Shown: positions 5,736-49,064, counted from the first letter of the stretch. The stretch: DNA of 64,000 nt from Haliotis rufescens (GCF_023055435.1 NW_025963924.1:6138001-6202000); one strand, 5' to 3'. Program-made: numbers and translations. The notes: a model not told the origin generated them from the letters alone.

Positions 5736-5971
5736 TTATCTACACTCGCAGGCACGCAAATTTGCGTCAAAAATAGGGCTCCCCGGGTCGCAATTAGGAC
5801 ACACGCCAGTTTTGAGCAGTCGCTGATTAAGGCACTCAACGTAGTTACGAGAGTTGGGGCGATGTTCGTAGACGTTGAGGCCGTCGGCGAGGTTCCTACA
5901 GGTGGGGTTGTTGATGAAACAGGGTGGCCCACAGTCCTTGCCCCCAGCACACGCGTGCTGAGCATACTCGC
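5736..5971 (-). CDS. Gene B last exon: Cys-rich linker + C-terminal CBM14-like domain
   Basis: ttttcag|GC acceptor completes Cys codon (phase 1); CEYAQHACAGGKDCGPPCFINNPTCRNLADG...VECLNQRLLKTGVCPNCDPGSPIFDANLRACECR*; homologous to gene C exon 3; AATAAA at 5692-5697 (minus). Confidence 0.85.
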
Positions 5972-6258
5972 CTGAAAAGATATAACTCATATGCGCTAAA
6001 TGCCAACTGTAAGTGTCAAAATTAAAAGTTGTGAAAAACTTATTGGCATGAACATTATCAGACATGATAAGACCTTGTGTATATCTTTCTTACACTTGCA
6101 ATGTTTCGACTTTTGACATTGGCAAGTACATAAGTATGGATACAATGAGTGAAAAACGCAGAATTTTAGAATTTCAAGTGAAAATCAAAGTATGAGCAAG
6201 ACGTTGTCTCAAGATGATTTTTATCACATGTTTGTAATGTTTGTATTCTAGGAAAATG

Positions 6259-6801
6259 CATCTTCCCGAGGCAAGAGAGTTAACTGATTTTAAGGTCCAG
6301 TTTCCACCCTTGCCGAACTAGGCTGGAATTCCTGGGCTCGATCGTAGCTATTACCTGTGGCTATTACGAGTTCTGCCCCTTCTAAGCCTTTCCTATGGAC
6401 CAATCAGATTCCACATCTCGTATCGCTTGCATTTGTTTCAAACAAAATGGTGGCGCCCTGTCAAGACGATCCTATCGATAATCAAGATCTATATTGCGAT
6501 AAAACGGGTCTGACATCGCGAAGTGCATGAAATCACGTGAGCACCTTGATTAAGACATGAAAAGATCTGGAAAACATCAAATGACAACGAGTTGGCGGTG
6601 CACATGCTTTGCAAATCCTGCAATCGACCGAAATCCGACGACAGTTTACGAACCGGATTTCGATTTCGTTGCGCGATTTTGATTGGGCTATGCATAGACT
6701 CGTTAGTCCAGCCAAAATGTAACTCCAAAATACCAGCCTAGTTCGGCAAGGGTGGAAACTGGACTTTTATAGTCAGTCAACTCCCTTGCCTCGGGAAGAT
6801 G
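6259..6801. mobile_element. 543-bp non-autonomous DNA transposon, 9-bp TSD (Mutator-like by TSD length)
   Basis: About 65-bp TIRs CATCTTCCCGAGGCAAG...; TSD aggaaaatg at 6250-6258 and 6802-6810. Confidence 0.88.
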
Positions 6802-7899
6802 AGGAAAATGAGCTAGGGTCAAAGATTTGCTCAGGTGTAAATATTAGATAAACATTTCCTGAAAACCTATATCAAAAGCCTTTTTGACTCATTTTATCCT
6901 AACCTATGCCTGTAGTTGAATTCTTTGAACAACCAAAGCTAAGCTCACATTCATACAAACATATCTCATTAATTTTCTTAGTACTAATTTTTAGCCAAAG
7001 TTTTTCCCAATTCTTAAATTATGCGGAAAAGGGGCTGTTATCCTACCATGTCCTTTGTCATTTGAAAATAAATTATATCATACTTTACACATACTGGTGT
7101 TTATACTATTTGTTTACGCTGTCCACACAAGGACATATTCATTTAAATCTATTTTTTTAAGAAAATACATTTATATAAAACCAAAGAGGTTCATTCAATT
7201 TACAACAGGGAAAGTCTAGAAATACTTCACACTAAATCTAAATTCGATTACCAACATTGGTATGTTATTGTTGCTAAAAGCTAGTTCTTTCAAAAACAAA
7301 TCTGCACCACTGAAAGAGCTACTAAAATCTTCAAATTTACCAAGACAACAAAATGACTGAAACGTTGGTATAAGATATGGTATAAGTCCCATACAAAATA
7401 GTTGCTTGGCGATACGGAGCATTCTGTTCATGTTGGGTTAGGTTACACAGCAAACGTTCTTTATCACTGCAAAAAAGTGTTCTTTTTACAGTCAATATTA
7501 CTATATTTCTTAAATCTGTACTTATATAAAATACAGTTTTGTTCTAGTTAAAATCAAGCGTAGCAAGGCGCCTGCGTTATCTCACGTCACATGTTTCGAT
7601 ATCGGTCTTATTTTAAAACATTTATATTCTACGGTTAAAGTATTTCAATAAAAATTTGTTATTGTTACCTGTGTATGATCAAACCAAACCCTTTTAATTA
7701 ACTTTTTTCAGTTAAAAGGAGTAAACGCATCATAGTCTGTATTGACAAAATATTGCAATAAAAGTGACAAAACCCTTTCTATATTACTAAAAATAATGGC
7801 CGAAAACAGTGACGATTGTACGATTACGGCTATATCATGAGCGTGTGTTTAGTGACGATGCCCCCACCCCATCCCCATCATAGACAAAGGCAAGTTAAT

Positions 7900-10480: not shown

Positions 10481-10660
10481 GGCTGGGTAGACGTCTTTGG
10501 GATGCATGAAACAGACTCTTTTCATTAAAAGCTGGCAGTTCATTGGTTAGAAAGACTGCAACCGTCGTTTATGACCGTGAACGTCAACTAATGTGCCATT
10601 TTTGGCAACTTTCTCGATAATTATAAGTCTAAGTAGTTGATAAATGTTAAAGGTGTATAT

Positions 10661-11950: not shown

Positions 11951-11957
11951 GCAAAAG

Positions 11958-13403: not shown

Positions 13404-13655
13404 ATTTCCCCAGGGGCTCTGTCCTGTTGCCACACGTGACCATGCTGTAGTGTTCACATCTCTGTGTTTCAGGGTTGTACAACTCCGGGAAGGGACATTC
13501 CTGTAGGTTCTGTTCTAAGGTGGAACGATGTATTTTCATGGCGGGCGCACTACAGTTGTAGTACTGGGCACACATAGCCGGGTGGGGAATCAGTGTTTCC
13601 GTCGTCGTCTTGCAGATGGGGTTCACGTCGCCTGAGTCTAGAATGAATGCTGATG
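13404..13655 (-). CDS. Gene B CBM14 exon
   Basis: 252 nt, phase 1-1, ccag| and |GTAAGT; ICKTTTETLIPHPAMCAQYYNCSAP...QECPFPELYNPETQRCEHYSMVTC has six-Cys peritrophin-A spacing. Confidence 0.92.
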
Positions 13656-13749
13656 CTGGAACTGATGCAAAAAGTGACAGGTTTAAACCTAGTTTGTGAG
13701 TGACGAAGACTCTACCAGTGACGCCAAACTAACCACAGCCCTAAACCTA

Positions 13750-15112
13750 CCTACCCCCTCTCGCCATCTACCCTCTCTTACCCCGCCATTCAATATTTCC
13801 ACAGCACCCGTCTCTCCATCTACCCTCTCTTACCCCGCCATTCAACACTTCCCACTGCATCGCTCTCTCCATCTACTCTCTCTTACCGTGCCATTCACCA
13901 CTTCCCACTGCATTCCTCTCTCCATCTACCCTCTCTTACCCCGCCATTCAACACTTCCAACTGCATCCCTCTCATTCTACCCTCTCTTACCCCGCCATTC
14001 ACCACTTCCCACTGCATCGCTCTCTCCATCTACTCTCTCTTACCCTGCCATTCAACACTTCCCACTGCATCCCTCTCCATCTACCCTCTCTTACCCCGCC
14101 ATTCAACACTTCCCACTGCATTCCTCTCATTCTACCCTCTCTTACCCCGCCATTCACCACTTCCCACTGCATTCCTCTCATTCTACTCTCTCTTACCCCG
14201 CCATTCAACACTTCCCACTGCATCCCTCTCTCCATCTACCCTCTCTTACCCCGCCATTCACCACTTCCCACTGCATTCCTCTCATTCCACCCTCTCTTAC
14301 CCCGCCATTCACCACTTCCCACTGCATCCCTCTCTCCATCTACCCTCTCTTACCCCGCCATTCAACACTTCCCACTGCATCGCTCTCTCCATCTACCCTC
14401 TCTTACCCCGCCATTCACCACTTCCCACTGCATTCCTCTCTCCATCTACCCTCTCTTACCCCGCCATTCAACACTTCCAACTGCATCCCTCTCATTCTAC
14501 CCTCTCTTACCCCGCCATTCACCACTTCCCACTGCATCGCTCTCTCCATCTACTCTCTCTTACCCTGCCATTCAACACTTCCCACTGCATCCCTCTCCAT
14601 CTACCCTCTCTTACCCCGCCATTCAACACTTCCCACTGCATTCCTCTCATTCTACCCTCTCTTACCCCGCCATTCACCACTTCCCACTGCATCCCTCTCC
14701 ATCTACCCTCTCTTACCCCGCCATTCAACACTTCCCACTGCATTCCTCTCTCCATCTACGCTCTCTTACCCCGCCATTCACCACTTCCCACTGCATCGCT
14801 CTCTCCATCTACCCTCTCTTACCCCTCCATTCACCACTTCCCACTGCATTCCTCTCTCCATCTACCCTCTCTTACCCCGCCATTCACCACTTCCCACTGC
14901 ATCCCTCTCTCCATCTACCCTCTCTTACCCCGCCATTCAACACTTCCCACTGCATCGCTCTCTCCATCTACCCTCTCTTACCCCGCCATTCACCACTTCC
15001 CACTGCATTCCTCTCTCCATCTACCCTCTCTTACCCCGCCATTCACCACTTCCCACTGCATCCCTCTCTCCATCTACCCTCTCTTACCCCGCCATTCAAC
15101 ATTTCCCACCTA
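13750..15112. repeat. 51-53-bp pyrimidine-rich minisatellite (about 26 units) in gene B intron
   Basis: Unit catctaccctctcttaccccgccattcaacacttcccactgcatccctct(ct)c. Confidence 0.95.
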
Positions 15113-15858: not shown

Positions 15859-15919
15859 ATGAATCCAGGGCGGCCAGCAGCACCATCAGCAAGCACAACA
15901 CGCGACTCTCACACATCAT
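15859..15919 (-). CDS. Gene B signal-peptide exon (secreted chitin-binding protein, 182 aa total)
   Basis: MMCESRVLCLLMVLLAALDS, T|GTGAGC phase-1 donor; joins in frame with 13404-13655 and 5736-5971 (61+252+236=549 nt). Upstream acceptor ttttcttgtag at 15946/15945. Confidence 0.85.
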
Positions 15920-16228: not shown

Positions 16229-16403
16229 GGGGCGGTCGGGTAGCCTAGTGGTTAAAGCGTTCGCTTGCATTGTCACGCCGAAGACGCGGGTTCAATTCAC
16301 GACATGGGTACAATGTGTGAAGCCCATTTCTGGTGTCCCCCGCCGTGATATTGCTGGAATATTGCTAAAAGCGGAGTAAAACCATACTCACTCACTCACT
16401 CAC
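16229..16403 (+). mobile_element. SINE family 1 containing the array's left breakpoint
   Basis: 13-bp TSD tcatataccccga (16216-16228, 16404-16416); only its tail and right TSD recur at the junctions. Confidence 0.9.
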
Positions 16404-16931
16404 TCATATACCCCGACACAGACAAGTGTCAGCCATATACAGTGTGCATGCCTTGGAGAACTGAAGTTGAAACGGCGAATACAAAAGTATGTATTAAATA
16501 TAGTTGTTCCGATATGTTTTATATAAGTTAACTAACATACCACTACCATACTGGCGAATATTGATGTATCATACGATTACTCCGCACAACAAAACTACAC
16601 CCATAATATGGCTAAATATAAAATGACATCTGAGCGTCACTTTTAGTCAAATAAAAACAAAAACTAATCATTTTTTTTCAACGCTTTATGATTTCGTTAT
16701 CCATAAAATACACATTTTATAAAAGAGCAGAGTTCAAAGTGTGCACAATTGTTTATGTTGGTATTCTTGGCAAAGTCAAGAAAATAATAGATAGTGTCTT
16801 CCACTTTTGGTTTTTAATCAAATAATATAAAAATTCTACCTCTTTCCTCATTTTTTTTTTAAAAAAAGCATTAATTATTTTTATACAGCCAGGCATATAC
16901 CGTCTGGTACATAAAATGAATATTACCTTAC

Positions 16932-17052
16932 CTTCACAGCGCTATAACGGCTACAGGGCAGCGGCTTGTGGTAGATATGTTATACATCTCCCTCTTTAAA
17001 TGTAGGGTTTAAATACCAGGGTATATTTAGATATGGGAAATGCGCATGTGGT
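16932..17052 (-). promoter_or_regulatory. Gene B predicted core promoter and non-coding first exon
   Basis: GAAG|GTAAGG donor at 16932/16931 in the same position as gene A's donor; TATA-like TAAATATA/TATTTAAA; 33-bp block conserved with gene A. Confidence 0.6.
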
Positions 17053-17154
17053 TATCTGTAATTTCTGGTATGTATTAAAACTTGGTTTGAAAAAGGATAG
17101 CACCAGTTGCTTGGAATAATTTGTCGTATAATATATATAACATATGTATTAAGG

Positions 17155-17314
17155 TGAGTAAGTATGGTTTTACGCCGCTTTTAGCAATATTCCAGCAATA
17201 TCACGTCGGGGGACACCAGAAATGGGCTTCACACATTGTACCCATGTCGGGAATCGAACCCAGGTATTCGGCGTGACGAGCGAACGCTTTACCACTAGAC
17301 TACCCGACCGCCCC
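17155..17314 (-). mobile_element. SINE family 1 (copied into each unit; further copies about 21577-21740, 50580-50733, 57925-58085, 63683-63856)
   Basis: TSD tatgtattaagg; A/B boxes. Confidence 0.9.
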
Positions 17315-17962
17315 TATGTATTAAGGAGTATAAAGGATGAATATGAGGATAAGAACAAGGGTTGGTACTTCTTTCAAGTAATTATCTTTAGATAATTCAT
17401 AAATTCTGTTCAACGCCAATATCTAAATTAAAGCATTTGTTATAAACATCTTTGTTAAAAAGCGAAGTGTTTGGATCCCAAGGTTTCAGGAGCTGCACAA
17501 AAATTACTCATAAATGTGTTTTGTTCTCGCATTTCAAACTATCACCTTGATGTCGAACGCCAGGCTGAGAAACAACAAGTAGTATCTTTAAAGGTCTTTG
17601 ATGTGACGCGGCCGTGAATCCAACCACCATCATTTCGCTCCCCGGCAGACACTCTATCCGTTAGACCACGGAGGCGGTCCGCTATTAACTGGAATGTCCC
17701 ATATGTATTAGGATTGCGTGTCATCGTGTTCCACCTCAAAGGACATACACATATTGTTATCTGAACAACAGATACATTTGTTGATGTGCAGGGTTGGTTT
17801 GTTGTTTTACGCCGCACTCAGCGATAGTTGATGCGCAGGGATAGCTAGTCTGTGGTGTAGAGCCCAAGCTACATACACGCAGGGGCACATGCACTACCAA
17901 CCGCACGCACACGTCTATTGTTATGATGCGACCAGGAGCCGAAGCATTGGCCTTCTACTCTC

Positions 17963-18913
17963 GAGGCAGACGCGCTATCCACTATTCCACGAAGGCGGTC
18001 TCAGACAGACGCGCTATCCACTACACCACGAAGGCGGTTTCAGGCAGACGCGCTATCCACTACACCACGAAGGCGGTCTCAGGCAGACGCGCTATCCACT
18101 ACCCCATGAAGGCGGTCTCAGGCAGACACTCTATCCACTACACCACGAAGGCGTTCTCAGGCAGACCCGCTTTCCACTACCCCACGAAGGCGGTCTCAGG
18201 TAGATGCGCTATCCACTACCCCACGAAGGCGGTCTCAGGCAGACGCGCTATCCACTACCCCACGAAGGCGTTCTCAGGCAGATGCGCTATCCACTACACC
18301 ACGAAGGCGGTCTCAGGCAGAAGCTCTATCCACTACACTATGAAGGCGGTCTCAAGCAGACGCGCTATCCACTACCCCACCAAGGTGGTCTCAGGCAGAC
18401 GCGCTATCCACTACACCACGAAGGCGGTCTCAGGCAGACGCTCTATCCACTACCCCACGAAGGCGGTCTCAGGCAGACGCTCTATCCACTACACCACGAG
18501 GGCGGTCTCAGGCAGACTCTCTATCCACTACACCACGAAGGCGGTCTCAGGCAGACGCGCCTCAACTACCCCACGAAGGCGGTCTCAGGCAGACGCGCTA
18601 TCCACTACCCTACAAAGGCGGTCTCAGGCAGACACTCTATCTACTACCCCAAGAAGGCGGTCTCAGGCAGACGCGCTATCGACTACCCCACGAAGGCGGT
18701 CTCAGGCAGACGCGCTATCCACTACCCCACGAAGGCGGCCTCAGGCAGATGCGCTGTCCACTACACCACAAAGGCGGTCTCAGGCAGACGCGCTATCCAC
18801 TACACCAAGAAGGCGGTCTCAGGCAGACGCGCTATCCACTACACCACGAAGGTGGTCTCAGGCAGACGCGCTATCCATTACCCCACGAAGGCGGTCTCAG
18901 ACAGACGTGCTAT
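17963..18913. repeat. 39-bp minisatellite (about 24 units; about 6 units at 34162-34412)
   Basis: Unit aggcagacgcgctatccactacaccacgaaggcggtctc. Confidence 0.95.
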
Positions 18914-19239
18914 CAAAGCAATAAAACAGAGGCTGATGACTTCAGTCTGGTGCGTGCATTAAATTCAGCACCATATGGTCTCGACAACTATCGTGTATGT
19001 TGAACATCCGTCACTGGCTACTTTATAACTTACCACTGACAGGAATATGGCCTCATAAAAACAAGTATGAAAGTTTGCATTAGTGTTGTTCCCACTAAAT
19101 AGGACGTCACTGACAGCTGCCTACTTTGTGCTGAGTCGTGATGCGTGTAGGTTTACCATTCAAACAAAGAGAGGGTGTTGGTGCACCAATAGCAGTCCTC
19201 ATATATGCGTACAAATGAAGAGATTGTTGTTAAGTGAAA

Positions 19240-20460: not shown

Positions 20461-20595
20461 TTTGAGTAACATATCACAGTAGGAATAAGAAGATATTTTG
20501 CACAGTGTATCCGAGACGCTACCCCCTTGCTGACACTACAAGATAGAATGTGATTGGTTAATAGACACCGAGAAAAGACATAATTGGTAGAAATA

Positions 20596-20601
20596 TTTAT
20601 T
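20596..20601 (-). terminator. Candidate polyadenylation signal of C1 (alternative AATAAA at 20938-20943)
   Basis: AATAAA about 650 nt past the stop, conserved in all four units. Confidence 0.45.
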
Positions 20602-21251
20602 CAATCAAGCATATTTGCAACATAAATAGAATAAAAGAATAAAACCCGAATCCGCTGGGGAATTGAGTTTAGATTTACAATCAAATTACACAACACTGTT
20701 AACACAACACACAAACACAACACATTGATCATAATTACAAGGATTCAGAAATAAATAAACCGGGTGTTTATACCGGCTGCAATGGGACTTACAGAGTTAG
20801 TGTGTACACATTCAATGACGGGCAGGTCAATACTTCAAGTGTTTAATACAAGCTTGGTACCATACAGAACACAATATTGTTCACAAACTCCAATATAATT
20901 TAGGCAACAGACGGTTTTCATGGTAATGACTTAAATTTTTATTCACGTAAAATCACAAAGACTCTAGAAATCCTATTTAGGACGCGCATTTGTTAAATTT
21001 GATTCCTTGAACACATGAAAGAAACTTGAATGTCTAAATTTGGATTTCTAAATGGCCACAACCAGTTATAGAATACGCTGAAGAAGTCCGGGAATGTGTA
21101 AAGGAAATTCCGGACTGCGGCACAAAAGTCCATCATCACGTGACCCCGAGGTGAATATGACTGCCAAATAAGGAATGACCAATCATGAAACAGGAAGTTC
21201 AGAAACAGTACCAAGTGCAAGAAATTGAGAAAGTTTTTCATCTTCATTACT

Positions 21252-21484
21252 TCAAGCAGTCCGCGCAACGCACATCCTCTTGGCTTGATCGAAGATCTGT
21301 GGTCCGTTCTTCTGGTTGCACGTACCCGAATACACCATCCGTCCACCCACACACACGACGAAGTAGGGAAAGTCTTCCCTACCCACCCAGTGGTTCAAGC
21401 CGTCGGGAAGACCCTTGCAACTTGGGTAGCGCACCATGCAGGGCATGCAGTGAGCAGACAGGCACTGGTTCGCACGGTAGTCGC
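21252..21484 (-). CDS. Gene C1 exon 3 (Cys linker + third CBM14-like domain)
   Basis: gacag|GC; CDYRANQCLSAHCMPCMVRYPSCKGLPDGLNHWVGREDFPYFVVCVGGRMVYSGTCNQKNGPQIFDQAKRMCVARTA*. Confidence 0.92.
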
Positions 21485-22516
21485 CTGTCAGAAAGAGAGA
21501 GTGAATGAGTAAATGAGTGATTTGACACTGCTTTGAACAGTCTTTCAGTTATATCACGTCGTGTCAGCTTGACATGAGAGTGAGTGAGTATGTTTTGCGC
21601 CGCTTTTAGCACTATTCCAGCACTATCACGGCGGGGGACACCAGAAATGGGCTTCACACATTGTACCAATGTCGAGAATCGAACCCGGGTCTTCGGCGTG
21701 ACGAACGAATGCTTTTACCACTAGGCTACCCGACCGCCCCTGCTTGACATGAGAGGAAATCCCCTTAGGTCTTACACGTTTACCACTTTGGTAAAACCCA
21801 CGAGCACGGGTATGGTGCTGACAAACTTAGAAACATTATCAGGGCGAACCTGGATTCGATCAAAGGTTTCTGGCACGCCTAAGCGACGCAACCCTGCAAA
21901 ATGCGGCGCATTTGGCGTCTAACCACCCGTCCCCACTACCAGTTTACAGCTACAGGTTCGTTATAAGCGTGTTCGTTATAAACGTAGTTTACTGTAATGT
22001 GAGTAAGAAAGTGAATAAGTGAGATGCCGTTTTAAGCAATTCCAGCCAGGGCAGAGAAACTGAGGTGAAGTTAGTGGAACCTTAATCAATGGTCGTGGAT
22101 TTCAAAGCAGAATAGAACCCAAGCACTTTATAACAGCCGAGTGTCGACCAATCTGGTTGTTCCAATGCCTCCCCGAGTAAGAGTACTGGAGTGAGTGAGT
22201 GAGTTGGGTTTAACGCCGCTTTTAACAGTATTCCAGTAATCCAGTTATATCGCGGCGTGTAAGCTTAATGTGGGAGGAAAGCCCGAAGTGATGCAGGTCT
22301 AAGACGTTTATCGCTTCGGTGAAACCCACGAGCACGGGTATGGTGCTGACAAACCTAGAAACATAATCGGGGCGAACCGGGATTCGAACCCACAATCATA
22401 GGTTTCTGGCGTGTTCAAGGGACGCAACTCTGCACAGCGAATCGCGGCGCCTTAGACGACTGGGCCACCCGTGCCCCCCTTTCCGGTATGAATGGCATGG
22501 TTAATGGTATACTCAC

Positions 22517-22750
22517 ACTGACTGATGGCTTCGACTCTCTCACCACACTTCACCATGGTGTAGTGCTCGCACCGCTTAGTGATGACGTTGTAAAACTGGG
22601 GGTAGGGGCACTCGCTCAGATGTTCTGGCCACCTGAACCTTGTCGGAGCAGAGCAGTTGTAGTACTGGGCACAGTTGGTGGGGTGGGGGATCAAGGCACG
22701 GGACTCTGGAAGACAGATGACCGTCTCCGCTCGGGTGTCCTTCTTGGTAC
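22517..22750 (-). CDS. Gene C1 exon 2 (CBM14)
   Basis: 234 nt, phase 1-1; ICLPESRALIPHPTNCAQYYNCSAPTRFRWPEHLSECPYPQFYNVITKRCEHYTMVKC. Confidence 0.93.
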
Positions 22751-22919
22751 CTGGCGAACAATATTCATAATTTGTAATCAAATATATCTTCTTTTTTTAA
22801 TTACCCGATGGGGTGAGTGTTTATCTCACAGGCACATGTGCCTCCATATATGAAGCAATCGCCAAACGGGTTTTCCTGTTAAGTGATGTTTCCGTTCTAA
22901 TTTGGATTCATAAAAAGGG

Positions 22920-23150
22920 TATTCCGGATTACATGATTTCCGGATTATCAAGGTTTATGGACTGACATGTAATTCGGACTAACGGGGGTCCGTACTATCA
23001 AGGCTTCCGGAATGACCTGGAATCCGGATTGACGGGAGTCCGGACTTTCAAGGTTTCTGGAAGGACATGGAATCCGGATTGCCGGGTTCCCGGATTAACA
23101 AGGTGTCCGGAATGTCGGGGGTTCCAGATAAACAAGGTTACGGACTAGTT
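22920..23150. repeat. Degenerate about 20-bp CCGGA repeat, probably MITE-internal (longer in C3/C4, ending ...TTCACTG|TA near 39072)
   Basis: Periodic tccggatt/ccggact motifs. Confidence 0.6.
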
Positions 23151-23845
23151 AGGTTTCTTATTAGTCCCGGGGCAAGTCCTGCATAACTGCTGTAACCTGA
23201 AATATATCACTGTCATGTACAACGACTCTCGGCGGGGTCGCACCTCGGCGACAGGGACGACTGACAGTGTACACAACTGCGCCGCCTCGACTTTATTCTC
23301 AGCTAAGACGTTGTCGAAATAACGCTGACATGCAGCAGCGACGACGACGAGGATTGACGTTGCATCACACAAGTCTTACTCTTTTAAAGCATTTCGCGGT
23401 TTGCTGACAAGAACATTTAAATAAATTATTGCCGTGCAGCGTCAGCTGTGCGTTGTAGCACATTTGTTTTGGGCCGGCTGTCATATTTCGTATTAAGTAT
23501 AAAGTACTTGCAATATACTGCCCGCTTGAGCGAAGATGTTTTGTGTCAGTTTTGTTCTGATTTTTATATCACCTTGGCTGAGCTTTAGATAACAAAGAGC
23601 ATTAGTATCTTGGCTTTGAGAAGAAGTTGTCGGTCGCTCGGTTTTTGTACATGATTATTGGTAGATTTCCTAAAGTAACCTTTATTTACATTCAAGATAC
23701 AAATTGTATTTTAAAGAAGTAGATTACACTCTCGTCTTTTCACTAACTGCATCGGAAAAATCTATTATATTTCAAGAAGGCCAGTAAGTGAAATCAAATT
23801 TAACTTTGAACTTGATGTTTCAGCCAATTCCTGTAAATAAGCAAG

Positions 23846-24148
23846 GTTTAACATCGCTTTTAGCAATATTTCAGTGAGATCGTGGATGGTTTAGCATCGC
23901 TTTTAGCAATATTTCAGTGAGATCGCGGATGGTATAACATCGCTTTTAGCAATATTTCAGTGAGATCGTGGATGATTTAACATCGCTTTTAGCAATATTT
24001 CAGTGAGATCGTGGATGGTTTAACATCGCTTTTAGCAATATTTCAGTGAGATTGCAGATGGTTTAACATCGCTTTCAGCAATATTTCAGTGAGATCGCGG
24101 ATGGTTTAACATCGCTTTTAGCAATATTTTAGTAAGATCGTGGATGGT
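23846..24148. repeat. 43-bp tandem repeat in C intron 1 (7, 6, 7, 10 units in C1-C4; 31028-31290, 40320-40622, 48164-48586)
   Basis: Unit ggtttaacatcgcttttagcaatatttcagtgagatcgcggat. Confidence 0.93.
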
Positions 24149-24482
24149 ACCAGGAGCGAACTTTAACCTGGGTACCCACATCATGACTAGAACCCCTCGA
24201 CGTGACGAGTGAACGCTTCAACCACAGGCCTACCCAACTGCCCATATATCTCGGTAAACGAAGATGGAATCGATGCTTTGTAAATTTATCAAATCTTCTG
24301 ATTATAGTGAGTGAGTGTGGTTTTACGCCGCTTTTAATAATATCCCACAAATATCACACGGGGGACACCAGCTTAACACCATTTAGGGCATCGAACCCGG
24401 GCATTCGGCTTGATAGAGAACTACTTAACCACTTGGCTACCCCGCCACCCTCTGAATATCGAGTTTAATACACAGTACTTAC

Positions 24483-24711
24483 AATTGTCGTAGATGGATC
24501 CCTGGCCGACGCATGTTTTGGTCTCGGGGTCGAACACGCTGTTTGAACAGTTGAACTTGTACAGGATCTCATTGGTGCACACATAGAAGACCGAACAGTC
24601 ATCGGGATCTGGTCTGAAGTCGGGGTTGCCTTTAACCACACAACTACCCACTGATGTTGAAGCGGTTGCCATGGCCACGATTAAGCAAGCGAGTACAATT
24701 CGAAATGCCAT
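24483..24711 (-). CDS. Gene C1 exon 1 (signal peptide + CBM14); secreted 3x chitin-binding protein, 231 aa
   Basis: ACCATGG context; MAFRIVLACLIVAMATAS then CVVKGNPDFRPDPDDCSVFYVCTNEILYKFNCSNSVFDPETKTC; T|GTAAG donor; 229+234+233=696 nt open. Confidence 0.93.
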
Positions 24712-28140: not shown

Positions 28141-28373
28141 TCAAGCAGTCCGCTCAACGCACATCCTCTTGGCTTGATCGAAGAACTGTGGTCCGTTCTC
28201 CTGGTTGCACAAACCCGAATACACCATCCGTCCACCCTCACACACGACGAAGTAGGGTGAGTCTTCCCTGCCCACCCAGTGGTTCAAGCCGTCGGGAAGA
28301 CCCTTGCAACTTGGGAAGCGCACCATGCAGGGGATACAGTGAGCAGCCAGGCACTGGTTCGCACGGTAGTCGC
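28141..28373 (-). CDS. Gene C2 exon 3
   Basis: Paralog of 21252-21484 with intact acceptor and stop; CDYRANQCLAAHCIPCMVRFPSC...CVERTA*. Confidence 0.92.
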
Positions 28374-29699
28374 CTGTAAGAAAGAGAGAGTGAATGAGTG
28401 AGTGAGTGTTCTGACTGCTTTGAACAGTTTTTTAGTTATATCACGTCGTGGCAGCTTGACATGAGAGTGAGTGAGTATGGTTTAACGCCGCTTTTAGCAC
28501 TATTCCAGCAATATCACGGCGGGGGACACCAGAAATGGGCTTCAAACATTGTACCCATGTCGAGAATCGAACCCAGGTCTTCGGCGTGACGAACGAATGC
28601 TTTAACCACTAGGCTACCCGACCGCCCCTGCTTGACATGAGAGGAAATCCCCTTAGGTCTTACTCGTTTACCACTTTGGTAAAACCCACGAGCACGGGTA
28701 TGGTGCTGACAAACTTAGAAACATTATCAGGGCGAAACTGGATTCGATCATAGGTTTCTGGCACGCCTAAGCGACGCAACCCTGCAAAATGCGGCGCATT
28801 TGGCGTCTAACCACCCGTCCCCACTACCAGTTTACAGCTACAGGTGTCTCCTGTCGAAGACACGCTCGGGCAAGGCAGATCAGAAATATATACAGCTTAG
28901 TCCTTATTCCGCACATTGTACCCATGTGGGAATCGAAGCCGGCCTTTGGCTTGACGAGTGATCGCTTTTACCACTAGACTACCCGCCGCCCCGGAACCAT
29001 ATACAGTAAAATACGGTTATAACGAACTCAAAGGGACCATTAATTTTAGTTCGTAACAACCGTAGTTCGTTATAAGCATATATACAGCATATATGCAACA
29101 AATGGCCGGGACTAAAACATATGTTCGTTATATCGGTCAGTTCGTTATAAGCGTGTTCGTTATAAACGTAGTTTACTGTAATGTGAGTAAGAAAGTGAAT
29201 AAGTGAGATGCCGTTTTAAGCAATTCCAGCCAGGGCAGAGAAACTGAGGTGAAGTTAGTGGAACCTTAATCAATGGTCGTGGATTGCAAAGCAGAATAGA
29301 ACCAAGCACTTTATAACAGCCGAGTGTCGACCAATCTGGTTGTTTCAATGCCTCCCCGAGTATGAGTACTGGAGTGAGTGAGTGAGTTGGGTTTAACGCC
29401 GCTTTTAACAGTATTCCAGTAATCCAGTTATATCGCGGCGTGTAAGCTTAATGTGGGAGGAAAGCCCGAAGTGATGCAGGTCTCAGACGTTTATCACTTC
29501 GGTGAAACCCACGAGCACGGGTATGGTGCTGACAAACCTAGAAACATAATCGGGGCGAACCGGGATTCGAACCCACAATCATAGGTTTCTGGCGTGTTCA
29601 AGGGACGCAACTCTGAACAGCGAATCGCGGCGCCTTAGACGACTGGGCCACCCGTGCCCCCCTTTCCGGTATGAATGGCATGGTTAATGGTATACTCAC

Positions 29700-29933
29700 A
29701 GTGACTGATGGCTTCGACTCTCTCACCACACTTCACCATGGTGTAGTGCTCGCACCGCTTAGTGATGACGTTGTAAAACTGGGGGTAGGGGCACTCGCTC
29801 AGATGTTCTGGCCACCTGAACCTTGTCGGAGCAGAGCAGTTGTAGTACTGGGCACAGTTGGTGGGGTGGGGGATCAAGGCACGGGACTCTGGAAGACAGA
29901 TGACCGTCTCCGCTCGGGTGTCCTTCTTGGTAC
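29700..29933 (-). CDS. Gene C2 exon 2 (CBM14)
   Basis: Paralog of 22517-22750, splice sites intact. Confidence 0.93.
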
Positions 29934-31624
29934 CTGGCGAACAATATTCATAATTTGTAATCAAATATATCTTCTTTTTTTAATTACCCGATGGGGTGAG
30001 TGTTTATCTCACAGGCACATGTGCCTCCATATATGAAGCAATCGCCAAACGGGTTTTCCTGTTAAGTGATGTTTCCGTTCTAATTTGGATTCATAAAAAG
30101 GGTATTCCGGATTACATGATTTCCGGATTATCAAGGTTTATGGACTGACATGTAATTCGGACTAACGGGGGTCCGTACTATCAAGGCTTCCGGAATGACC
30201 TGGAATCCGGATTGACGGGAGTCCGGACTTTCAAGGTTTCTGGAAGGACATGGAATCCGGATTGCCGGGTTCCCGGATTAACAAGGTGTCCGGAATGTCG
30301 GGGGTTCCAGATAAACAAGGTTACGGACTAGTTAGGTTTCTTATTAGTCCCGGGGCAAGTCCTGCATAACTGCTGTAACCTGAAATATATCACTGTCATG
30401 TACAACGACTCTCGTCGGTGTCGCACCTCGGCGACAGGGACGACTGACAGTGTACACAACTACGCCGCCTCGACTTTATTCTCAGCTAAGACGTTGTCGA
30501 AATAACGCTGACATGCAGCAGCGACGACGACGAGGATTGACGTTGCATCACACAAGTCTTACACTTTTAAAGCATTTCGCGGTTTGCTGACAAGAACATT
30601 TAAACAAATTATTGCCGTGCAGCGTCAGCTGTGCGTTGTAGCACATTTGTTTTTGGCCGGCTGTCATATTTCGTATTAAGTATAAAGTACTTGCAATATA
30701 CTGCCCGCTTGAGCGAAGATGTTTTGTGTCAGTTTTGTTCTGATTTTTATATCACCTTGGCTGAGCTTTAGATAACAAAGAGCATTAGTATCTTGGCTTT
30801 GAGAAGAAGTTGTCGGTCGCTCGGTTTCTGTACATGATTATTGGTAGATTTCCTAAAGTAACCTTTATTTACATTCAAGATACAAATTGTATTTTAAAGA
30901 AGTAGATTACACTCTCGTCTTTTCACTAACTGCATCGGAAAAATCTATTATATTTCAAGAAGGCCAGTAAGTGAAATCAAATTTAACTTTGAACTTGATG
31001 TTTCAGCCAATTCCTGTAAATAAGCAAGTTTTAACATCACTTTTAGCAATATTTCAGTGAGATCGCGGATGGTATAACATCGCTTTTAGCAATATTTCAG
31101 TGAGATCGTGGATGATTTAACATCGCTTTTTTCGCAATATTTCAGTGAGATCGTGGATGGTTTAACATCGCTTTTAGCAATATTTCAGTGAGATTGCAGA
31201 TGGTTTAACATCGCTTTCAGCAATATTTCAGTGAGATCGCGGATGGTTTAACATCGCTTTTAGCAATATTTCAGTAAGATCGTGGATGGTACCAGGAGCG
31301 AACTTTAACCTGGGTACCCACATCATGACTAGAACCCTTCGACGTGACGAGTGAACGCTTCAACCACAGGCCTACCCAACTGCCCATATATCTCGGTACA
31401 CGAAGATGGAATCGATGCTTTGTAAATTTATCAAATCTTCTGATTATAGTGAGTGAGTGTGGTTTTACGCCGCTTTTAATAATATCCCACAAATATCACA
31501 CGGGGGACACCAGCTTAACACCATTTAGGGCATCGAACCCGGGCATTCGGCTTGATAGAGAACTACTTAACCACTTGGCTACCCCGCCACCCTCTGAATA
31601 TCGAGTTTAATACACAGTACTTAC

Positions 31625-31853
31625 AATTGTCGTAGATGGATCCCTGGCCGACGCATGTTTTGGTCTCGGGGTCGAACACGCTGTTTGAACAGTTGAACTT
31701 GTACAGGATCTCATTGGTGCACACATAGAAGACCGAACAGTCATCGGGATCTGGTCTGAAGTCGGGGTTGCCTTTAACCACACAACTACCCACTGATGTT
31801 GAAGCGGTTGCCATGGCCACGATTAAGCAAGTGAGTACAATTCGAAATGCCAT
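31625..31853 (-). CDS. Gene C2 exon 1 (signal peptide + CBM14)
   Basis: Paralog of 24483-24711 (A8T in signal peptide). Confidence 0.93.
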
Positions 31854-36889: not shown

Positions 36890-37122
36890 TCAAGCAGTCC
36901 GCTCAACGCACATCCTCTTGGCTTGATCGAAGAACTGTGGTCCGTTCTCCTGGTTGCACAAACCCGAATACACCATCCGTCCACCCTCACACACGACGAA
37001 GTAGGGTGAGTCTTCCCTACCCACCCAGTGGTTCAAGCCGTCGGGAAGACCCTTGCAACTTGGGAAGCGCACCATGCAGGGGATACAGTGAGCAGCCTGG
37101 CACTGGTTCGCACGGTAGTCGC
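36890..37122 (-). CDS. Gene C3 exon 3
   Basis: As C2 exon 3 but CQAAH in linker; intact. Confidence 0.92.
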
Positions 37123-38324
37123 CTGTAAGAAAGAGAGAGTGAATGAGTGAGTGAGTGTTCTGACTGCTTTGAACAGTTTTTTAGTTATATCACGTCGTGT
37201 CAGCTTGACATGAGAGTGAGTGAGTATGGTTTAACGCCGCTTTTAGCACTTTTCCAGCAATATCACGGCGGGGGACACCAGAAATGGGCTTCAAACATTG
37301 TACCCATGTCGAGAATCGAACCCAGGTCTTCGGCGTGACGAACGAATGCTTTAACCACTAGGCTACCCGACCGCCCCTGCTTGACATGAGAGGAAACCCC
37401 CTTAGGTCTTACACGTTTACCACTTTGGTAAAACCCACGAGCACGTGTATGGTGCTGACAAACTTAGAAACATTATCAGGGCGAAACTGGATTCGATCAT
37501 AGGTTTCTGGCACGCCTAAGCGACGCAACCCTGCAAAATGCGGCGCATTTGGCGTCTAACCACCCGTCCCCACTACCAGTTTACAGCTACAGGTGTCTCC
37601 TGTCGAAGACACGCTCGGGCAAGGCAGATCAGAAATATATACAGCTTAGGCATTATTCCGCACATTGTACCCATGTGGGAATCGAAGCCGGCCTTTGGCT
37701 TGATGAGTGATCGCTTTTACCACTAGACTACCCGCCGCCCCGGAACCATATACAGTAAAATACGGTTATAACGAACTCAAAGGGACCATTAATTTTAGTT
37801 CGTAACAACCGTAGTTCGTTATAAGCATATATACAGCAAATATGCAACAAATGGCCGGGACTAAAACATATGTTCGTTATATCGGTCAGTTCGTTATAAG
37901 CGTGTTCGTTATAAACGTAGTTTACTGTAATGTGAGTAAGAAAGTGAATAAGTGAGATGCCGTTTTAAGCAATTCCAGCCAGGGCAGAGAAACTGAGGTG
38001 AAGTTAGTGGAACCTTAATCAATGGTCGTGGATTGCAAAGCAGAATAGAACCAAGCACTTTATAACAGCCGAGTGTCGACCAATCTGGTTGTTTCAATGC
38101 CTCCCCGAGTATGAGTACTGGAGTGAGTGAGTGAGTGAGCTGGGTTTAACGCCGCTTTTAACAGTATTCCAGTAATCCAGTTATGTCGCGGCGTGTAAGC
38201 TTAATGTGGGAGGAAAGCCCGAAGTGATGCAGGTCTCAGACGTTTATCACTTTGGTGAAACCCACGAGCACGGGTATGGTGCTGACAAACCTAGTATGAA
38301 TGGCATGGTTAATGGTATACTCAC

Positions 38325-38558
38325 AGTGACTGATGGCTTCGACTCTCTCACCACACTTCACCATGGTGTAGTGCTCGCACCGCTTAGTGATGACGTTGTA
38401 AAACTGGGGGTAGGGGCACTCGCTCAGATGTTCTGGCCACCTGAACCTTGTCGGAGCAGAGCAGTTGTAGTACTGGGCACAGTTGGTGGGGTGGGGGATC
38501 AAGGCACGGGAATCTGGAAGACAGATGACCGTCTCCGCTTGGGTGTCCTTCTTGGTAC
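38325..38558 (-). CDS. Gene C3 exon 2 (CBM14)
   Basis: TKKDTQAETVICLPDSRALIPHPTNCAQYYNC...; splice sites intact. Confidence 0.93.
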
Positions 38559-40957
38559 CTGGGGAACAATATTCATAATTTGTAATCAAATATTTCATTA
38601 TTTTTTTTAATTACCCGATCGGGTGAGTGTTTATCTTACAGGCACATGTGCCTCCTTATATGAAGCAATCGCCCAGTGGGTTTTCCTGTTAAATTATGTT
38701 TCCGTTCTAATTTGGATTCCTAAAAAAGGGGCTATTCCGGATTACATGATTTCCGGATTATCAAGCTTTCTGAACTGACATGTAATTCGGACTAACGGGG
38801 CTTCCGTACTATCAAGGCTTCCGGAATGACATGGAATCCGGATTGACGGGAGTCCGGACTATCAAGGTTTCTGGAAGGACATGGAATCCGGATTGCCGGG
38901 TTCCCGGAGTAACAAGGTGTCCGAAATGTCGGGGTTTCCGGATAAACAAGGTTTCCTGACAGGCATTCAATCCGGACTAACGGGGTTTCCGGATTTTTAA
39001 GGTTACGGATTAGTTAGGTTTCCAGGGTAACTGGGTTTCCGAGATAACATGGACTAGCGGGTTATTTCACTGTATTGGGATGTAAATTCATGATCATATT
39101 GTCTGTCAAAGAAAGTGTTACAATTATGCGAAATCCGTTTTAGTTCTGTCCATTAAAGGACTGGTCATTTATTATAGGGGAGGGTGAGATGAGAGGGTGG
39201 CATGAAAAATGACCCAGTTCTATTATTTCAAATAATATTTATAAAAATGTTACATAAAATAGGGCGTCGGTTAAATATGATACAGTCGTAATACCAATCT
39301 CAAAAAGAAAGTTCAGCGCTGACGACAACCCACGCGTGACACAACCAACTTCCCCCACTGTCGAAATGAAAGAGGCGGTTGCACGTGCAAGTCGAGGTGT
39401 CGTTGGTATAAAAACTTGAGGCACGTGGTGAACCAATCGTTCACAATGGAACAGTTCATGTTGATAGAGGGGGTTTCAGGTATTTGGATGAAATTGTTCG
39501 TGGGAAATAATACACGGTGGGAAAAAGAGAGTGACGTCACGAGAATTATTTATTTTTAACAACATATATTATTTTAAGTAGTTTGCTCTACGTCCTAACT
39601 TTCCCGATCCTATTAGTCCCGGGGCAAGTCCTGCATAACTGCTGTGACCTGAAATATATCACTGTCATGTACAACGACTCTCGGCGGGGTCGCACCTCGG
39701 CGACAGGGACGACTGACAGTGTACACAACTACGCCGCCTCGACTTTATTCTCAGCTAAGACGTTGTCGAAATAAAGCTGACATGCAGCAGCGACGACGAC
39801 GAGGATTGACGTTGCATCACACAAGTCTTACACTTTTAAAGCATTTCGCGGTTTGCTGACGAGAACATTTAAACAAATTATTGCCGTGCAGAGTCAGCTG
39901 TGCGTTGTAGCACATTTGTTTTTGGCCGGCTGTCATATTTCGTATTAAGTATAAAGTACTTGCAATATACTGGTCGCTTGGGCGAATATGTTTTGTGTCA
40001 GTTTTGTTCTGATTTTTATATCACCTTGGCTGAGCTTTAGATAACAAAGAGCATTAGTATCTTGGCTTTGAGAAGAAGTTGTCGGTCGCTCGGTTTTTGT
40101 ACATGATTATTGGTAGATTTCCTAAAGTAACCTTTATTTACATTCAAGATACAAATTGTATTTTAATACAATGTCTAGGAAAAGAAGTAGATTACACTCT
40201 CGTCTTTTCACTAACTGCATCGGAAAAATCTATTATATTTCAAGAAGGCCAGTAAGTGAAATCAAATTTAACTTTGAACTTGATGTTTCAGCCACGATCC
40301 AATTCCTGTAAATAAGCAAGTTTTAACATCACTTTTAGCAATATTTCAGTGAGATCGTGGATGGTTTAACATCGCTTTTAGCAATATTTCAGTGAGATCG
40401 CGGATGGTATAACATCGCTTTTAGCAATATTTCAGTGAGATCGGGGATGATTTAACATCGCTTTTAACAATATTTCAGTGAGATCGCGGATGGTTTAACA
40501 TCGCTTTTAGCAATATTTCAGTGAGATCGCGGATGGTTTAACATCGCTTTCAGCAATATTTCAGTGAGATCGCGGATGGTTTAACATCGCTTTTAGCAAT
40601 ATTTCAGTAAGATCGTGGATGGTACCAGGAGCGAACTTTAACCTGGGTACCCACATCATGACTAGAACCCTTCGACGTGACGAGTGAACGCTTCAACCAC
40701 AGGCCTACCCAACTGCCCATATATCTCGGTACACGAAGATGGAATCGATGCTTTGTAAATTTATCAAATCCTCTGATTATAGTGAGTGAGTGTGGTTTTA
40801 CGCCGCTTTTAATAATATCCCACAAATATCACACGGGGGACACCAGCTTAACACCATATAGGGCATCGAACCCGGGCATTCGGCTTGATAGAGAACTACT
40901 TAACCACTTGGCTACCCCGCCACCCTCTGAATATCGAGTTTAATACACAGTACTTAC

Positions 40958-41186
40958 AATTGTCGTAGATGGATCCCTGGCCGACGCATGTATTGGTCTC
41001 GGGGTCGAACACGCTGTTTGAACAGTTGAACTTGTACAGGATCTCATTGGTGCACACATAGAAGACCGAACAGTCATCGGGATCTGGTCTGAAGTCGGGG
41101 TTGCCTTTAACCACACAACTACCCACTGATGTTGAAGCGGTTGCCATGGCCACGATTAAGCAAGCGAGTACAATTCGAAATGCCAT
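40958..41186 (-). CDS. Gene C3 exon 1 (signal peptide + CBM14)
   Basis: Intact; ETNTC variant. Confidence 0.93.
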
Positions 41187-44666: not shown

Positions 44667-44899
44667 TCAAGCAGTCCGCTCAACGCACATCCTCTTGGCT
44701 TGATCGAAGAACTGTGGTCCGTTCTCCTGGTTGCACAAACCCGAATACACCATCCGTCCACCCTCACACACGACGAAGTAGGGTGAGTCTTCCCTGCCCA
44801 CCCAGTGGTTCAAGCCGTCGGGAAGACCCTTGCAACTTGGGAAGCGCACCATGCAGGGGATACAGTGAGCAGCCAGGCACTGGTTCGCACGGTAGTCGC
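44667..44899 (-). CDS. Gene C4 exon 3
   Basis: Same translation as C2 exon 3; intact. Confidence 0.92.
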
Positions 44900-46224: not shown

Positions 46225-46458
46225 AGTGACTGATGGCTTCGACTCTCTCACCACACTTCACCATGGTGTAGTGCTCGCACCGCTTAGTGATGACGTTGTA
46301 AAACTGGGGGTAGGGGCACTCGCTCAGATGTTCTGGCCACCTGAACCTTGTCGGAGCAGAGCAGTTGTAGTACTGGGCACAGTTGGTGGGGTGGGGGATC
46401 AAGGCACGGGACTCTGGAAGACAGATGACCGTCTCCGCTTGGGTGTCCTTCTTGGTAC
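46225..46458 (-). CDS. Gene C4 exon 2 (CBM14)
   Basis: Intact 234-nt phase 1-1 exon. Confidence 0.93.
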
Positions 46459-48835
46459 CTGGGGAACAATATTCATAATTTGTAATCAAATATTTCATTA
46501 TTTTTTTTAATTACCCGATGGGGTGAGTGTTTATCTTACAGGCACATGTGCCTCCATATATGAAGCAATCGCCCAGCGGGTTTTCCTGTTAAATTATGTT
46601 TCCGTTCTAATTTGGATTCATACAAAAGGGGCTATTCCGGATTACAGGATTTCCAGATTATCAAGCTTTCTGAACTGACATGTAATTCGGACTAACGGGG
46701 CTTCCGTACTATCAAGGCTTCCGGAATGACATGAAATCCGGATTCCCGGGTTCCCGGAGTAACAAGGTGTCCGGAATGTCGGGGTTTCCGGATAAACAAG
46801 GTTTCCTGACAGGCATTCAATCCGGACTAACGGGGTTTCCGGATTATCAAGGTTACGGATTAGTTAGGTTTCCAGGGTAACTGGGTTTCCGAGATAACAT
46901 GGACTAGCGGGTTATTTCACTGTATTGGGATGTAAATTCATGATCATATTGTCTGTCAAAGAAAGTGTTACAATTATGCGAAATCCGTTTTAGTTCTGTC
47001 CATTAAAGGACTGGTCATTTATTATAGGGGAGGGTGAGATGAGGGGGTGGCATGAAAAATGTCCCAGTTCTATTATTTCAAATAATATATTTATAAAAAT
47101 GTTACATAAAATAGGGCGTCGGTAAAATATGATACAGTCGTAATACCAATCTCAAAAAAAAAAGTTCAGCGCTGACGACCAGCCCACGCGTGACACAACC
47201 AACTTCCCCCACTGTCGAAATGAAAGAGGCGGTTGCACGTGCAAGTCGAGGTGTCGTTGGTATAAAAACTTGAGGCACGTGGTGAACAAATCGTTCACAA
47301 TGGAACAGTTCATGTTGATAGAGGGGGTTTCAGGTATTTGGATGAAATTGTTCGTGGGAAATAATACACGGTGAGAAAAAGAGAGTGACGTCACAAGAAT
47401 TATTTATTTTTAACAACATATATTATTTTAAGTAGTTTGCTCTACGTCCTAACTTTCCCGATCTTATTAGTCCCGGGGCAAGTCCTGCATAACTGCTGTG
47501 ACCTGAAATATGTCATTGTCATGTACAACGACTCTCGGCGGGGTCGCACCTCGGCGACAGGGACGACTGACAGTGTACACAACTACGCCGCCTCGACTTT
47601 ATTCTCAGCTAAGACGTTGTCGAAATAACGCTGACATGCAGCAGCGACGACGACGAGGATTGACGTTGCATCACACAAGTCTTACTCTTTTAAAGCATTT
47701 CGCGGTTTGCTGACAAGAACATTTAAATAAATTATTGCCGAGCAGCGTCAGCTGTGCGTTGTAGCACATGTGTTTTTGGCCGGCTGTCATATTTCGTATT
47801 AAGTATAAAGTACTTGCAATATACTGGTCGCTTGGGCGAATATGTTTTGTGTCAGTTTTGTTCTGATTTTTATATCACCTTGGCTGAGCTTTAGATAACA
47901 AAGAGCATTAGTATCTTGGCTTTGAGAAGAAGTTGTCGGTCGCTCGGTTTTTGTACATGATTATTGGTAGATTTCCTAAAGTAACCTTTATTTACATTCA
48001 AGATACAAATTGTATTTTAATACAATGTCTAGGAAAAGAAGATTACACTCTCGTCTTTTCACTAACTGCATCGGAAAAATCTATTATATTTCAAGAAGGC
48101 CAGTAAGTGAAATCAAATGTAAAGTGATGTTTCAGCCACGGTTCAAATACTGTGAATAAGCAAGGTTTAACATCGCTTTTAGCAATATTTCAGTGAGATC
48201 GCGGATGGTTTAACATCGCTTTTAGCAATATTTCAGTGAGATTGCGGATGGTTTAACATCGCTTGTAGCAATATTTCAGTGAGATCGCGGATGGTTTAAC
48301 ATCGCCTCTAGCAATATTTCAGTGAGATCGCGGATGGTTTAACATCGCTTTTAGGAATATTTCAGTGAGATCTCGGATGGTTTAACATCGCTTCTAGCAA
48401 TATTTCAGTGAGATCGTGGATGGTTTAACATCGCTTTTAGGAATATTTCAGTGAGATCGCGGATGGTTTAACATCGCTTTTAGCAATATTTCAGTAAGAT
48501 CGCGGATGGTTTAACGTCGCTTTTAGTAATATTTCAATGAGATCGCGGATGGTTTAACATCGCTTTTAGCAATATTTCAGTGAGATTCAACTGCCCATAT
48601 ATCTCAGTACAGGAAGATGGAATCGATGCTTTGTAAATTTATCAAATCCTCTGATTATAGTGAGTGAGTGTGGTTTTACGCCGCTTTTAATAATATCCCA
48701 CCAATATCACACGGGGGACACCAGCTTAACACCATATAGGGCATCGAACCCGGGCATTCGGCTTGATAGAGAACAATTTAACCACTTGGCTACCCCGCCA
48801 CCCTCTGAATATCAAGTTTAATACATAGTACTTAC

Positions 48836-49064
48836 ATTTGTCGTAGATGGATCCCTGGCCGACGCATGTATTGGTCTCGGGGTCGAACACGCTGTTTGCA
48901 CAGTTGAACTTGTACAGGATCTCATTGGTGCACACATAGAAGACCGAACAGTCATCGGGATCTGGTCTGAAGTCGGGGTTGCCTTTAACCACACAACTAC
49001 CCACTGATGTTGAAGCGGTTGCCATGGCCACGATTAAGCAAGCGAGTACAATTCGAAATGCCAT
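48836..49064 (-). CDS. Gene C4 exon 1 (signal peptide + CBM14)
   Basis: Intact; FNCAN and YDKC variants. Confidence 0.93.

What the first reader, a model, noticed from the sequence alone, without database searches (positions are those of the whole stretch)
5736..49064. Expanding cluster of secreted multi-CBM14 proteins built from phase-1, one-domain-per-exon modules
Seen: six co-oriented genes. Every coding intron of B and C is phase 1, and those following a domain split a Cys codon (T|GT, T|GC). C = SP+CBM14(6C)+CBM14(6C)+4-Cys linker+4-Cys CBM14-like domain; B lacks the first domain. The linker CDYRANQCxxAHCxPC / CEYAQHAC..DCGPPC and the reduced last domain are not canonical insect peritrophin architecture. 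Established: CBM14 domains bind chitin in peritrophic matrix, cuticle and shell matrices. Inference: a lineage-specific chitin-matrix or pattern-recognition family under dosage expansion.
Basis: partly seen in the sequence, partly recalled or inferred. Interest (0 to 1): 0.7.

Follow-up and report, generated by a model that had tools for sequence, protein, structure and literature searches.

The report
Diversifying abalone shell-matrix chitin-domain gene cluster
This is part of a 27-locus abalone cluster for small, likely secreted chitin-binding-domain proteins of a mollusc-wide design; their relatives occur in abalone shell, and one abalone-only branch shows diversifying selection and is predicted to form disulfide-linked pairs.

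Summary
The genes are real. Five intact minus-strand genes (B, 182 aa; C1-C4, 231 aa) have the phase-1, Cys-splitting introns described; RNA contigs confirm both C junctions. They belong to a ~255-kb cluster of 27 loci in Haliotis rufescens, and C1-C4 are already in RefSeq as 'uncharacterized'. The architecture is not lineage-specific. CBM14 + 4-Cys linker + 4-Cys CBM14 is a ~150-aa module found in gastropods, bivalves and Octopus, and it is tandemly repeated in long proteins. The expansions are lineage-specific: four recent C copies, and an abalone-only B-type clade with pseudogenes, exon-2/exon-3 recombination and positive selection on exon 3 (p=1.6e-4). Published greenlip-abalone shell proteomes hold the C orthologue and three B-type proteins at low abundance; a six-module limpet relative is a major shell protein. 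A B-type paralogue is predicted, marginally, to form a homodimer with its extra terminal Cys on the axis. Best reading: secreted chitin-matrix adaptors, with the B branch diversifying, possibly for defence. Chitin binding is untested. Verdict: new variant of a known kind, interest 0.45.

The parts
48836..49064 (-). C4 exon 1: signal peptide + CBM14 domain 1 (RefSeq XP_048257661.1)
46225..46458 (-). C4 exon 2: six-Cys CBM14, first half of the module
44667..44899 (-). C4 exon 3: 4-Cys linker + 4-Cys CBM14-fold domain, stop
36890..41186 (-). gene C3, 231 aa (exons 41186-40958, 38558-38325, 37122-36890; XP_048257663.1)
28141..31853 (-). gene C2, 231 aa (exons 31853-31625, 29933-29700, 28373-28141; XP_048257662.1)
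21252..24711 (-). gene C1, 231 aa (exons 24711-24483, 22750-22517, 21484-21252; XP_046372860.2); exon 3 differs from C2 at 13 nt
15859..15919 (-). B exon 1: signal peptide only; phase-1 donor
   Evidence: paralogue RNA joint
13404..13655 (-). B exon 2: six-Cys CBM14 (acceptor at 13655 inferred from paralogues; other in-frame acceptors lie nearby)
5736..5971 (-). B exon 3: variable 4-Cys linker + reduced domain + extra C-terminal Cys
1..918 (-). gene A, 5' part (B-type): signal-peptide exon from 918, apparently frameshifted; exon 2 starts near 166 and runs off the window

Best explanation
These are real, spliced abalone genes for small signal-peptide-bearing CBM14 proteins built on a mollusc-wide ~150-residue module, and they likely act as secreted chitin-associated adaptors in the organic matrix of the shell and other epithelial secretions. 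Shown: gene structure, C splicing, the module's spread across molluscs, orthologue peptides in greenlip-abalone nacre and prism, and birth-and-death with positive selection in the B branch. Predicted: the six-Cys CBM14, the linker and the reduced CBM14 are all confidently folded; a B-type protein forms a two-fold dimer through the reduced domain's beta-sheet, with the extra terminal Cys on the axis. Inferred: the six-Cys domain (the only one keeping an aromatic residue after Cys5) docks on chitin; dimerisation makes it bivalent so that it cross-links fibrils or tethers partners; C2-C4 raise dosage; B-type copies vary the loops away from the predicted dimer face.
For: Gene models and splicing. 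RefSeq carries the same four C proteins. The H. laevigata C orthologue Tri_109450 was found in 5 of 6 nacre fractions (3-12 peptides, iBAQ 0.009-0.067%) and 2 of 4 prism fractions (9 peptides, 0.025-0.028%) (PMC6003135). Three B-type entries are in the same study's raw tables (1-3 peptides, 0.002-0.054%). Lottia 231869, with six modules, is called a major acid-soluble shell protein (PMC3374290). AF2 on 112 sequences: pLDDT 89.8, pTM 0.65. Residues 173-231 align with CBM14 folds (Z 5.9, rmsd 2.1, 53 aligned to EHEP; Z 5.5, rmsd 2.2, 48 aligned to Der p 23). The reduced domain has exactly four Cys in 104 of 112 rows. Homodimer model of paralogue g13: score 0.35, best control 0.11; runs share at least 88% of contacts, pLDDT at least 82; residue 183 (Cys) touches 183'. 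The mark was reached by 17 of 29 eukaryotic pairs (animals 7 of 16) and 0 of 30 single chains.
Against: Shell abundance is low, and the B-type entries did not make the paper's curated tables (0 hits). The transcripts also occur in the study's haemolymph/epipodial-tentacle database, so the proteins could be passengers in the shell. Octopus, without an external shell, keeps an orthologue. EHEP and Der p 23 are CBM14 proteins that do not bind chitin, and domains 1 and 3 lack an aromatic residue after Cys5. Positive selection is more typical of conflict than of a structural role. The dimer score is only just above the mark (0.32), and was run on a paralogue outside the window.
Confidence: 0.58

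Rival explanations
1. The proteins, above all the B type, are secreted defence or recognition molecules of haemocytes and exposed epithelia. They would bind chitin- or glycan-bearing invaders through variable loops and reach the shell as passengers or as a built-in barrier.
For: Positive selection on B-type exon 3 (M2a vs M1a 2dL 17.4, p=1.6e-4), beyond a recombination null (maximum 7.7 in 56 simulations). Exon-2 and exon-3 trees reject each other (AU p<1e-5). Pseudogenes are frequent. Transcripts are in a haemolymph/tentacle database. Peritrophin-A genes are named among herpesvirus-response candidates in abalone (PMC9327721), though not shown to be these genes.
Against: No induction or binding data for these genes. 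The C type is conserved across molluscs and a long relative is a major shell protein. Exon 2 shows no selection.
Confidence: 0.25
2. They are gut polyphenol scavengers like the sea-hare protein EHEP, expanded because abalone eat phlorotannin-rich brown algae.
For: EHEP (229 aa, signal peptide + three CBM14) is the best PDB match by sequence (E 3.6e-7) and by Foldseek (E 1.5e-6); it binds phlorotannin, not chitin.
Against: The sequence match covers only two CBM14 domains (profile positions 1-146). EHEP has three six-Cys domains and no 4-Cys linker. Whole-chain TM-score is 0.21, rmsd 18. C-type orthologues occur in filter feeders, carnivores and a vent snail. The only tissue evidence points to shell, mantle and haemolymph/tentacle.
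Confidence: 0.08
3. The cluster is mostly neutral copy-number churn in a repeat-rich region, partly inflated by uncollapsed haplotypes, and most copies are redundant.
For: About 6 of 27 loci look broken or remnant. One ~28-kb three-gene block is duplicated at 99% identity, which could be allelic.
Against: Four C copies cannot come from two haplotypes, and they differ by insertions and 0.2-4.7% in flanks. B-type paralogues have orthologues in other Haliotis species. Omega above 1 at some exon-3 sites, 0.36 overall in exon 2.
Confidence: 0.09

Closest known systems
CBM14 / peritrophin-A domain proteins (Pfam PF01607)
   Same: Signal peptide and six-Cys CBM14 domains above the Pfam cut-off; the last domain has the CBM14 fold.
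   Different: A conserved 4-Cys linker with no Pfam family and a last domain lacking Cys2 and Cys6 travel with the preceding CBM14 as one ~150-aa repeat unit.
Molluscan chitin-binding shell matrix proteins: H. laevigata Tri_109450 and Lottia Lotgi1|231869
   Same: Same family: Tri_109450 is the C orthologue (232 aa, peptides match H. asinina P0002); 231869 carries six modules.
   Different: Listed there only as uncharacterised chitin-binding-domain proteins; the passages read do not describe the linker module, the cluster or the diversifying B clade.
EHEP of Aplysia kurodai (PDB 8IN3)
   Same: Secreted molluscan ~25-kDa protein with three CBM14-fold domains; best PDB match.
   Different: Three canonical six-Cys domains, no 4-Cys linker, different domain arrangement from the model (TM 0.21); binds phlorotannin in digestive fluid.
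Der p 23 (PDB 4ZCE)
   Same: Short CBM14 fold matching the reduced domain (Z 5.5, rmsd 2.2, 48 aligned).
   Different: Single-domain mite allergen reported not to bind chitin; no linker or module.
Pif/BMSP shell proteins
   Same: CBM14-bearing shell matrix proteins of molluscs.
   Different: They carry VWA domains; Pfam finds only CBM_14 in these proteins.

Membership tests
CBM14 / peritrophin-A | PF01607 above gathering score | tested here: met
   C exons 1 and 2 and B exon 2 score 32.6-35.4 bits against 22.1; whole C proteins 58 bits
CBM14 / peritrophin-A | Six-Cys pattern in every domain | tested here: not met
   Met for domains 1 and 2; the last domain has four Cys in 104 of 112 rows and is below the Pfam cut-off
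CBM14 / peritrophin-A | CBM14 fold of the reduced domain | tested here: met
   On a predicted model, residues 173-231 align with EHEP, Der p 23 and CHIT1 CBM14 (Z 4.8-5.9); the top 7 rows are all CBM14
CBM14 / peritrophin-A | Exposed aromatic residue after Cys5 (Trp465 of CHIT1) | tested here: inconclusive
   Aromatic at position 140 of domain 2 in 84% of rows; none after Cys5 in domains 1 and 3. Role of Trp465 from PMC4844120; the mapping by motif is recalled
CBM14 / peritrophin-A | Chitin binding | not testable with these tools
   Needs a pull-down
Molluscan shell matrix proteins | Peptides recovered from shell organic matrix | tested here: met
   For H. laevigata orthologues, at low abundance; not for H. 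rufescens itself
Molluscan shell matrix proteins | Mantle-enriched expression | tested here: inconclusive
   Present in both the mantle and the haemolymph/tentacle databases; tissues of runs X1-X10 are not given
EHEP | Three six-Cys domains, no 4-Cys linker | tested here: not met
EHEP | Phlorotannin binding in digestive fluid | not testable with these tools
   Needs a precipitation assay
Pif/BMSP | VWA domain | tested here: not met
   Only CBM_14 found

The most novel reading that the evidence does not exclude
The abalone-only B-type genes form a variable recognition repertoire: disulfide-linked dimers with a constant CBM14 scaffold and hypervariable linker loops, diversified by tandem duplication, exon-2/exon-3 recombination and positive selection, and laid into shell and epithelial secretions as a barrier against microbes or borers. 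They are built on an unrecognised mollusc-wide CBM14-linker-CBM14 supradomain.
Probability: 0.2. Interest if true: 0.75.

Novelty: new variant of a known kind. Interest (0 to 1): 0.45.

Why it matters
It ties 'uncharacterised' entries of shell proteomes to one gene family with a shared module, a shared Cys-splitting intron and a defined genomic cluster. Shell-associated proteins under diversifying selection with a predicted covalent dimer give a concrete test of whether minor shell matrix proteins build the shell or defend it. The cluster is also a candidate copy-number-variable locus in a farmed species.

Tried and rejected
AF2 with 14 sequences gave a poor model (pLDDT 54.6) and was replaced. 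The first codon alignment used wrong donors for 12 genes and was redone. No selection signal in B-type exon 2 (p 0.61 and 0.18); C1 exon 3 (11 non-synonymous, 2 synonymous changes against C2) is not significant (Fisher p=1). Four of 13 C1-C2 exon-3 differences match paralogue g10, too few to call gene conversion. No RNA holder was on record as RNA and tissues are not given, so no expression ranking was made. B itself had no clean RNA cover. The linker got no Pfam family and no fold match of its own; it was not folded alone, so its fold is untested. No further cluster members in 50 kb left or 20 kb right of the 264-kb region. Every named relative was a mollusc, but many hits are unnamed, so absence elsewhere is not shown. 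Literature searches listed no paper on this cluster or module; K1R0D4 gave 0 papers; the gene-id search was swamped by a numeric term and is uninformative. Earlier scan findings: none. Rfam: one weak tRNA match only.

Full report
OBSERVATION. The window is G000:C146:6138001-6202000 of a 1.33-Gb genome. Four near-identical three-exon genes, C1-C4, lie on the minus strand. Each encodes 231 aa through GT-AG introns of phase 1 that split Cys77 and Cys155; their CDSs differ by 5-18 of 696 nt. Gene B has a signal-peptide exon, one CBM14 exon and the linker exon, giving 182 aa with the acceptor at 13655. Pfam CBM_14 is passed by 3 of the 5 exons scanned; C exon 3 is below the cut-off and B exon 3 has no hit. 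Contigs of four guessed-RNA runs join C exon 2-3 (4 of 4) and exon 1-2 (3 of 4) at the predicted sites, and two contigs span all three exons. On B only divergent paralogue or allele contigs were seen, with compatible joints.

IDENTITY AND CLUSTER. C1-C4 are RefSeq Haliotis rufescens proteins named 'uncharacterized', on a contig of the same length as C146; the same 90% cluster holds one H. cracherodii protein. tblastn over 264 kb found 27 exon-3-like loci between 5.979 and 6.233 Mb: 7 three-domain C-type, 16 two-domain B-type, and 4 others (one longer gene, two remnants, one on the plus strand). About six look broken: stops or frameshifts in g12, g15, g18 and g25, remnant g22, and A's first exon. 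More distant paralogues lie at C146:5.19 Mb and on C1; 3 of 3 checked keep the Cys-splitting intron. C copies differ by 0.2-1.7% downstream and 1.1-4.7% upstream; one ~28-kb block of three B-type loci is duplicated at 99% and could be allelic.

THE ARCHITECTURE IS OLD. Full-length C-type relatives occur in Gigantopelta, Patella, Babylonia, Pomacea, scallops, oysters and other bivalves and in Octopus. The unit CBM14 + linker + reduced CBM14 repeats up to nine times in long proteins of Sinanodonta, Nucella, Bulinus, Tegillarca and Lottia. A strict linker pattern matched 131 of the 202 proteins then held. In 112 aligned proteins the four linker Cys are 98-99% conserved and the last domain has exactly four Cys in 104. 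It lacks Cys2 and Cys6, which form one disulfide in CBM14 (PMC10619976, passages), so the loss is coherent. AF2 folds the mature protein confidently (mean pLDDT 89.8, pTM 0.65, linker blocks 90-96), and the reduced domain aligns with CBM14 structures.

THE B BRANCH IS ABALONE-ONLY AND DIVERSIFYING. In a tree of 154 modules, all 19 members of the B clade are Haliotis (SH-aLRT 97); its sister group is unresolved (near-duplicates and unnamed proteins over 700 aa were left out). Among 13 B-type genes, exon-2 and exon-3 trees reject each other (AU p<1e-5). With my own codon-model script on 10 of these 13 (three near-duplicates dropped), exon 2 shows no selection (omega 0.36, p 0.61). Exon 3 does: M2a vs M1a 2dL 17.4, p=1.6e-4, about 17% of sites at omega 3.2; the top sites are two in the linker and one in the last loop. 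The result held in three whole-exon subsets (p 0.0002-0.004); the linker alone gave p 0.059. Neutral simulations with three discordant trees reached at most 7.7 in 56 runs. The sample is small and branch lengths were fixed up to a scale. Eleven of 13 B-type genes end with an extra Cys two residues after the last domain Cys. A two-copy model of paralogue g13 (P0043, residues 31-184) scored 0.35 against a best control of 0.11, with at least 88% shared contacts and pLDDT at least 82. The mark was reached by 17 of 29 eukaryotic pairs (animals 7 of 16; 1 of 7 without a solved relative) and 0 of 30 single chains. The interface uses the reduced domain's sheet and places Cys183 against Cys183'; the three best-supported selected sites (about residues 118, 122, 171) are not among the named interface residues. 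This supports binding but does not show it.

FUNCTION. The H. laevigata shell proteome (PMC6003135: passages and supplement searches) lists Tri_109450, 232 aa, as an uncharacterised low-abundance chitin-binding-domain protein of nacre (5 of 6 fractions) and prism (2 of 4). Its peptides and flanks, read by eye, match the H. asinina C protein P0002. Three B-type entries appear in the raw tables with 1-3 peptides, but not in the curated ones. The transcripts come from both the mantle and the haemolymph/tentacle databases. Lottia 231869 is a major acid-soluble shell protein (PMC3374290: passages and supplement search). A secreted chitin-matrix role therefore has direct support at family level (0.58). 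Low abundance, non-mantle transcripts, the Octopus orthologue and positive selection keep a defence role open (0.25). EHEP is the closest solved structure, but it lacks the linker, has another domain arrangement than the model and binds phlorotannin (PMC10619976, PMC5271319: passages); it is an analogue, not the family (0.08), and a warning that CBM14 need not bind chitin. Only domain 2 keeps an aromatic residue near the CHIT1 Trp465 site (PMC4844120 passages; motif mapping recalled). Also read as passages, without a link to these genes: PMC9327721, PMC7142155, PMC5549309, PMC11291548.

NOVELTY. CBM14 expansions and CBM14 shell proteins are known in molluscs, and these genes are annotated. My searches listed no description of the linker module, this cluster or selection on it; the library lacks most subscription journals, and supplements of papers other than the two proteomes were not seen. 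Verdict: new variant of a known kind, interest 0.45; the variable-repertoire reading has probability 0.2 and would merit 0.75.

Noticed in passing
G000:C146:6138918-6133720 (gene A and g09; window 1-918 and L016): Public models fuse A and the next paralogue into one two-module protein in both H. rufescens (P0032) and H. cracherodii (P0033); about 900 bp separate them, with no signal-peptide-like frame seen, but I found no canonical donor for the fusion.
   Followed up: partly
G000:C146:6053056-6107439 (L008-L013): A ~28-kb three-gene block duplicated at about 99% identity, with a related third unit further left; both copies carry the same broken gene. Recent duplication or uncollapsed haplotype.
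   Followed up: partly
G000:C146:5185000-5208000 (L028-L030) and C1:55991600-55993400 (L032): A second small cluster and a longer module-bearing gene with the same Cys-splitting intron; further linker hits on C1 at 50.2 and 85.8 Mb.
   Followed up: partly
window 13743-15110, 17860-19050, 19290-20630, 23700-24250: Minisatellite arrays (about 53-, 39- and 43-nt units, and TGAG-rich tracts) in introns and spacers, several repeated in each C unit; possible substrates for unequal crossing-over.
   Followed up: no
window 16386-17913: Intergenic stretch 94-95% identical to the flanks upstream of C1-C3 but with no C exon beside it, marking the end of the duplicated unit.
   Followed up: no
window 1359-1524 and 10 further copies: A ~166-nt dispersed repeat, abundant in RNA contigs, with a weak tRNA match at 1447-1518; likely a tRNA-derived SINE.
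   Followed up: no
window 56338-56880 (+): 180-aa open frame with an acidic tail that looks by eye like a CENP-B/pogo-type transposon fragment (resemblance recalled, not searched).
   Followed up: no
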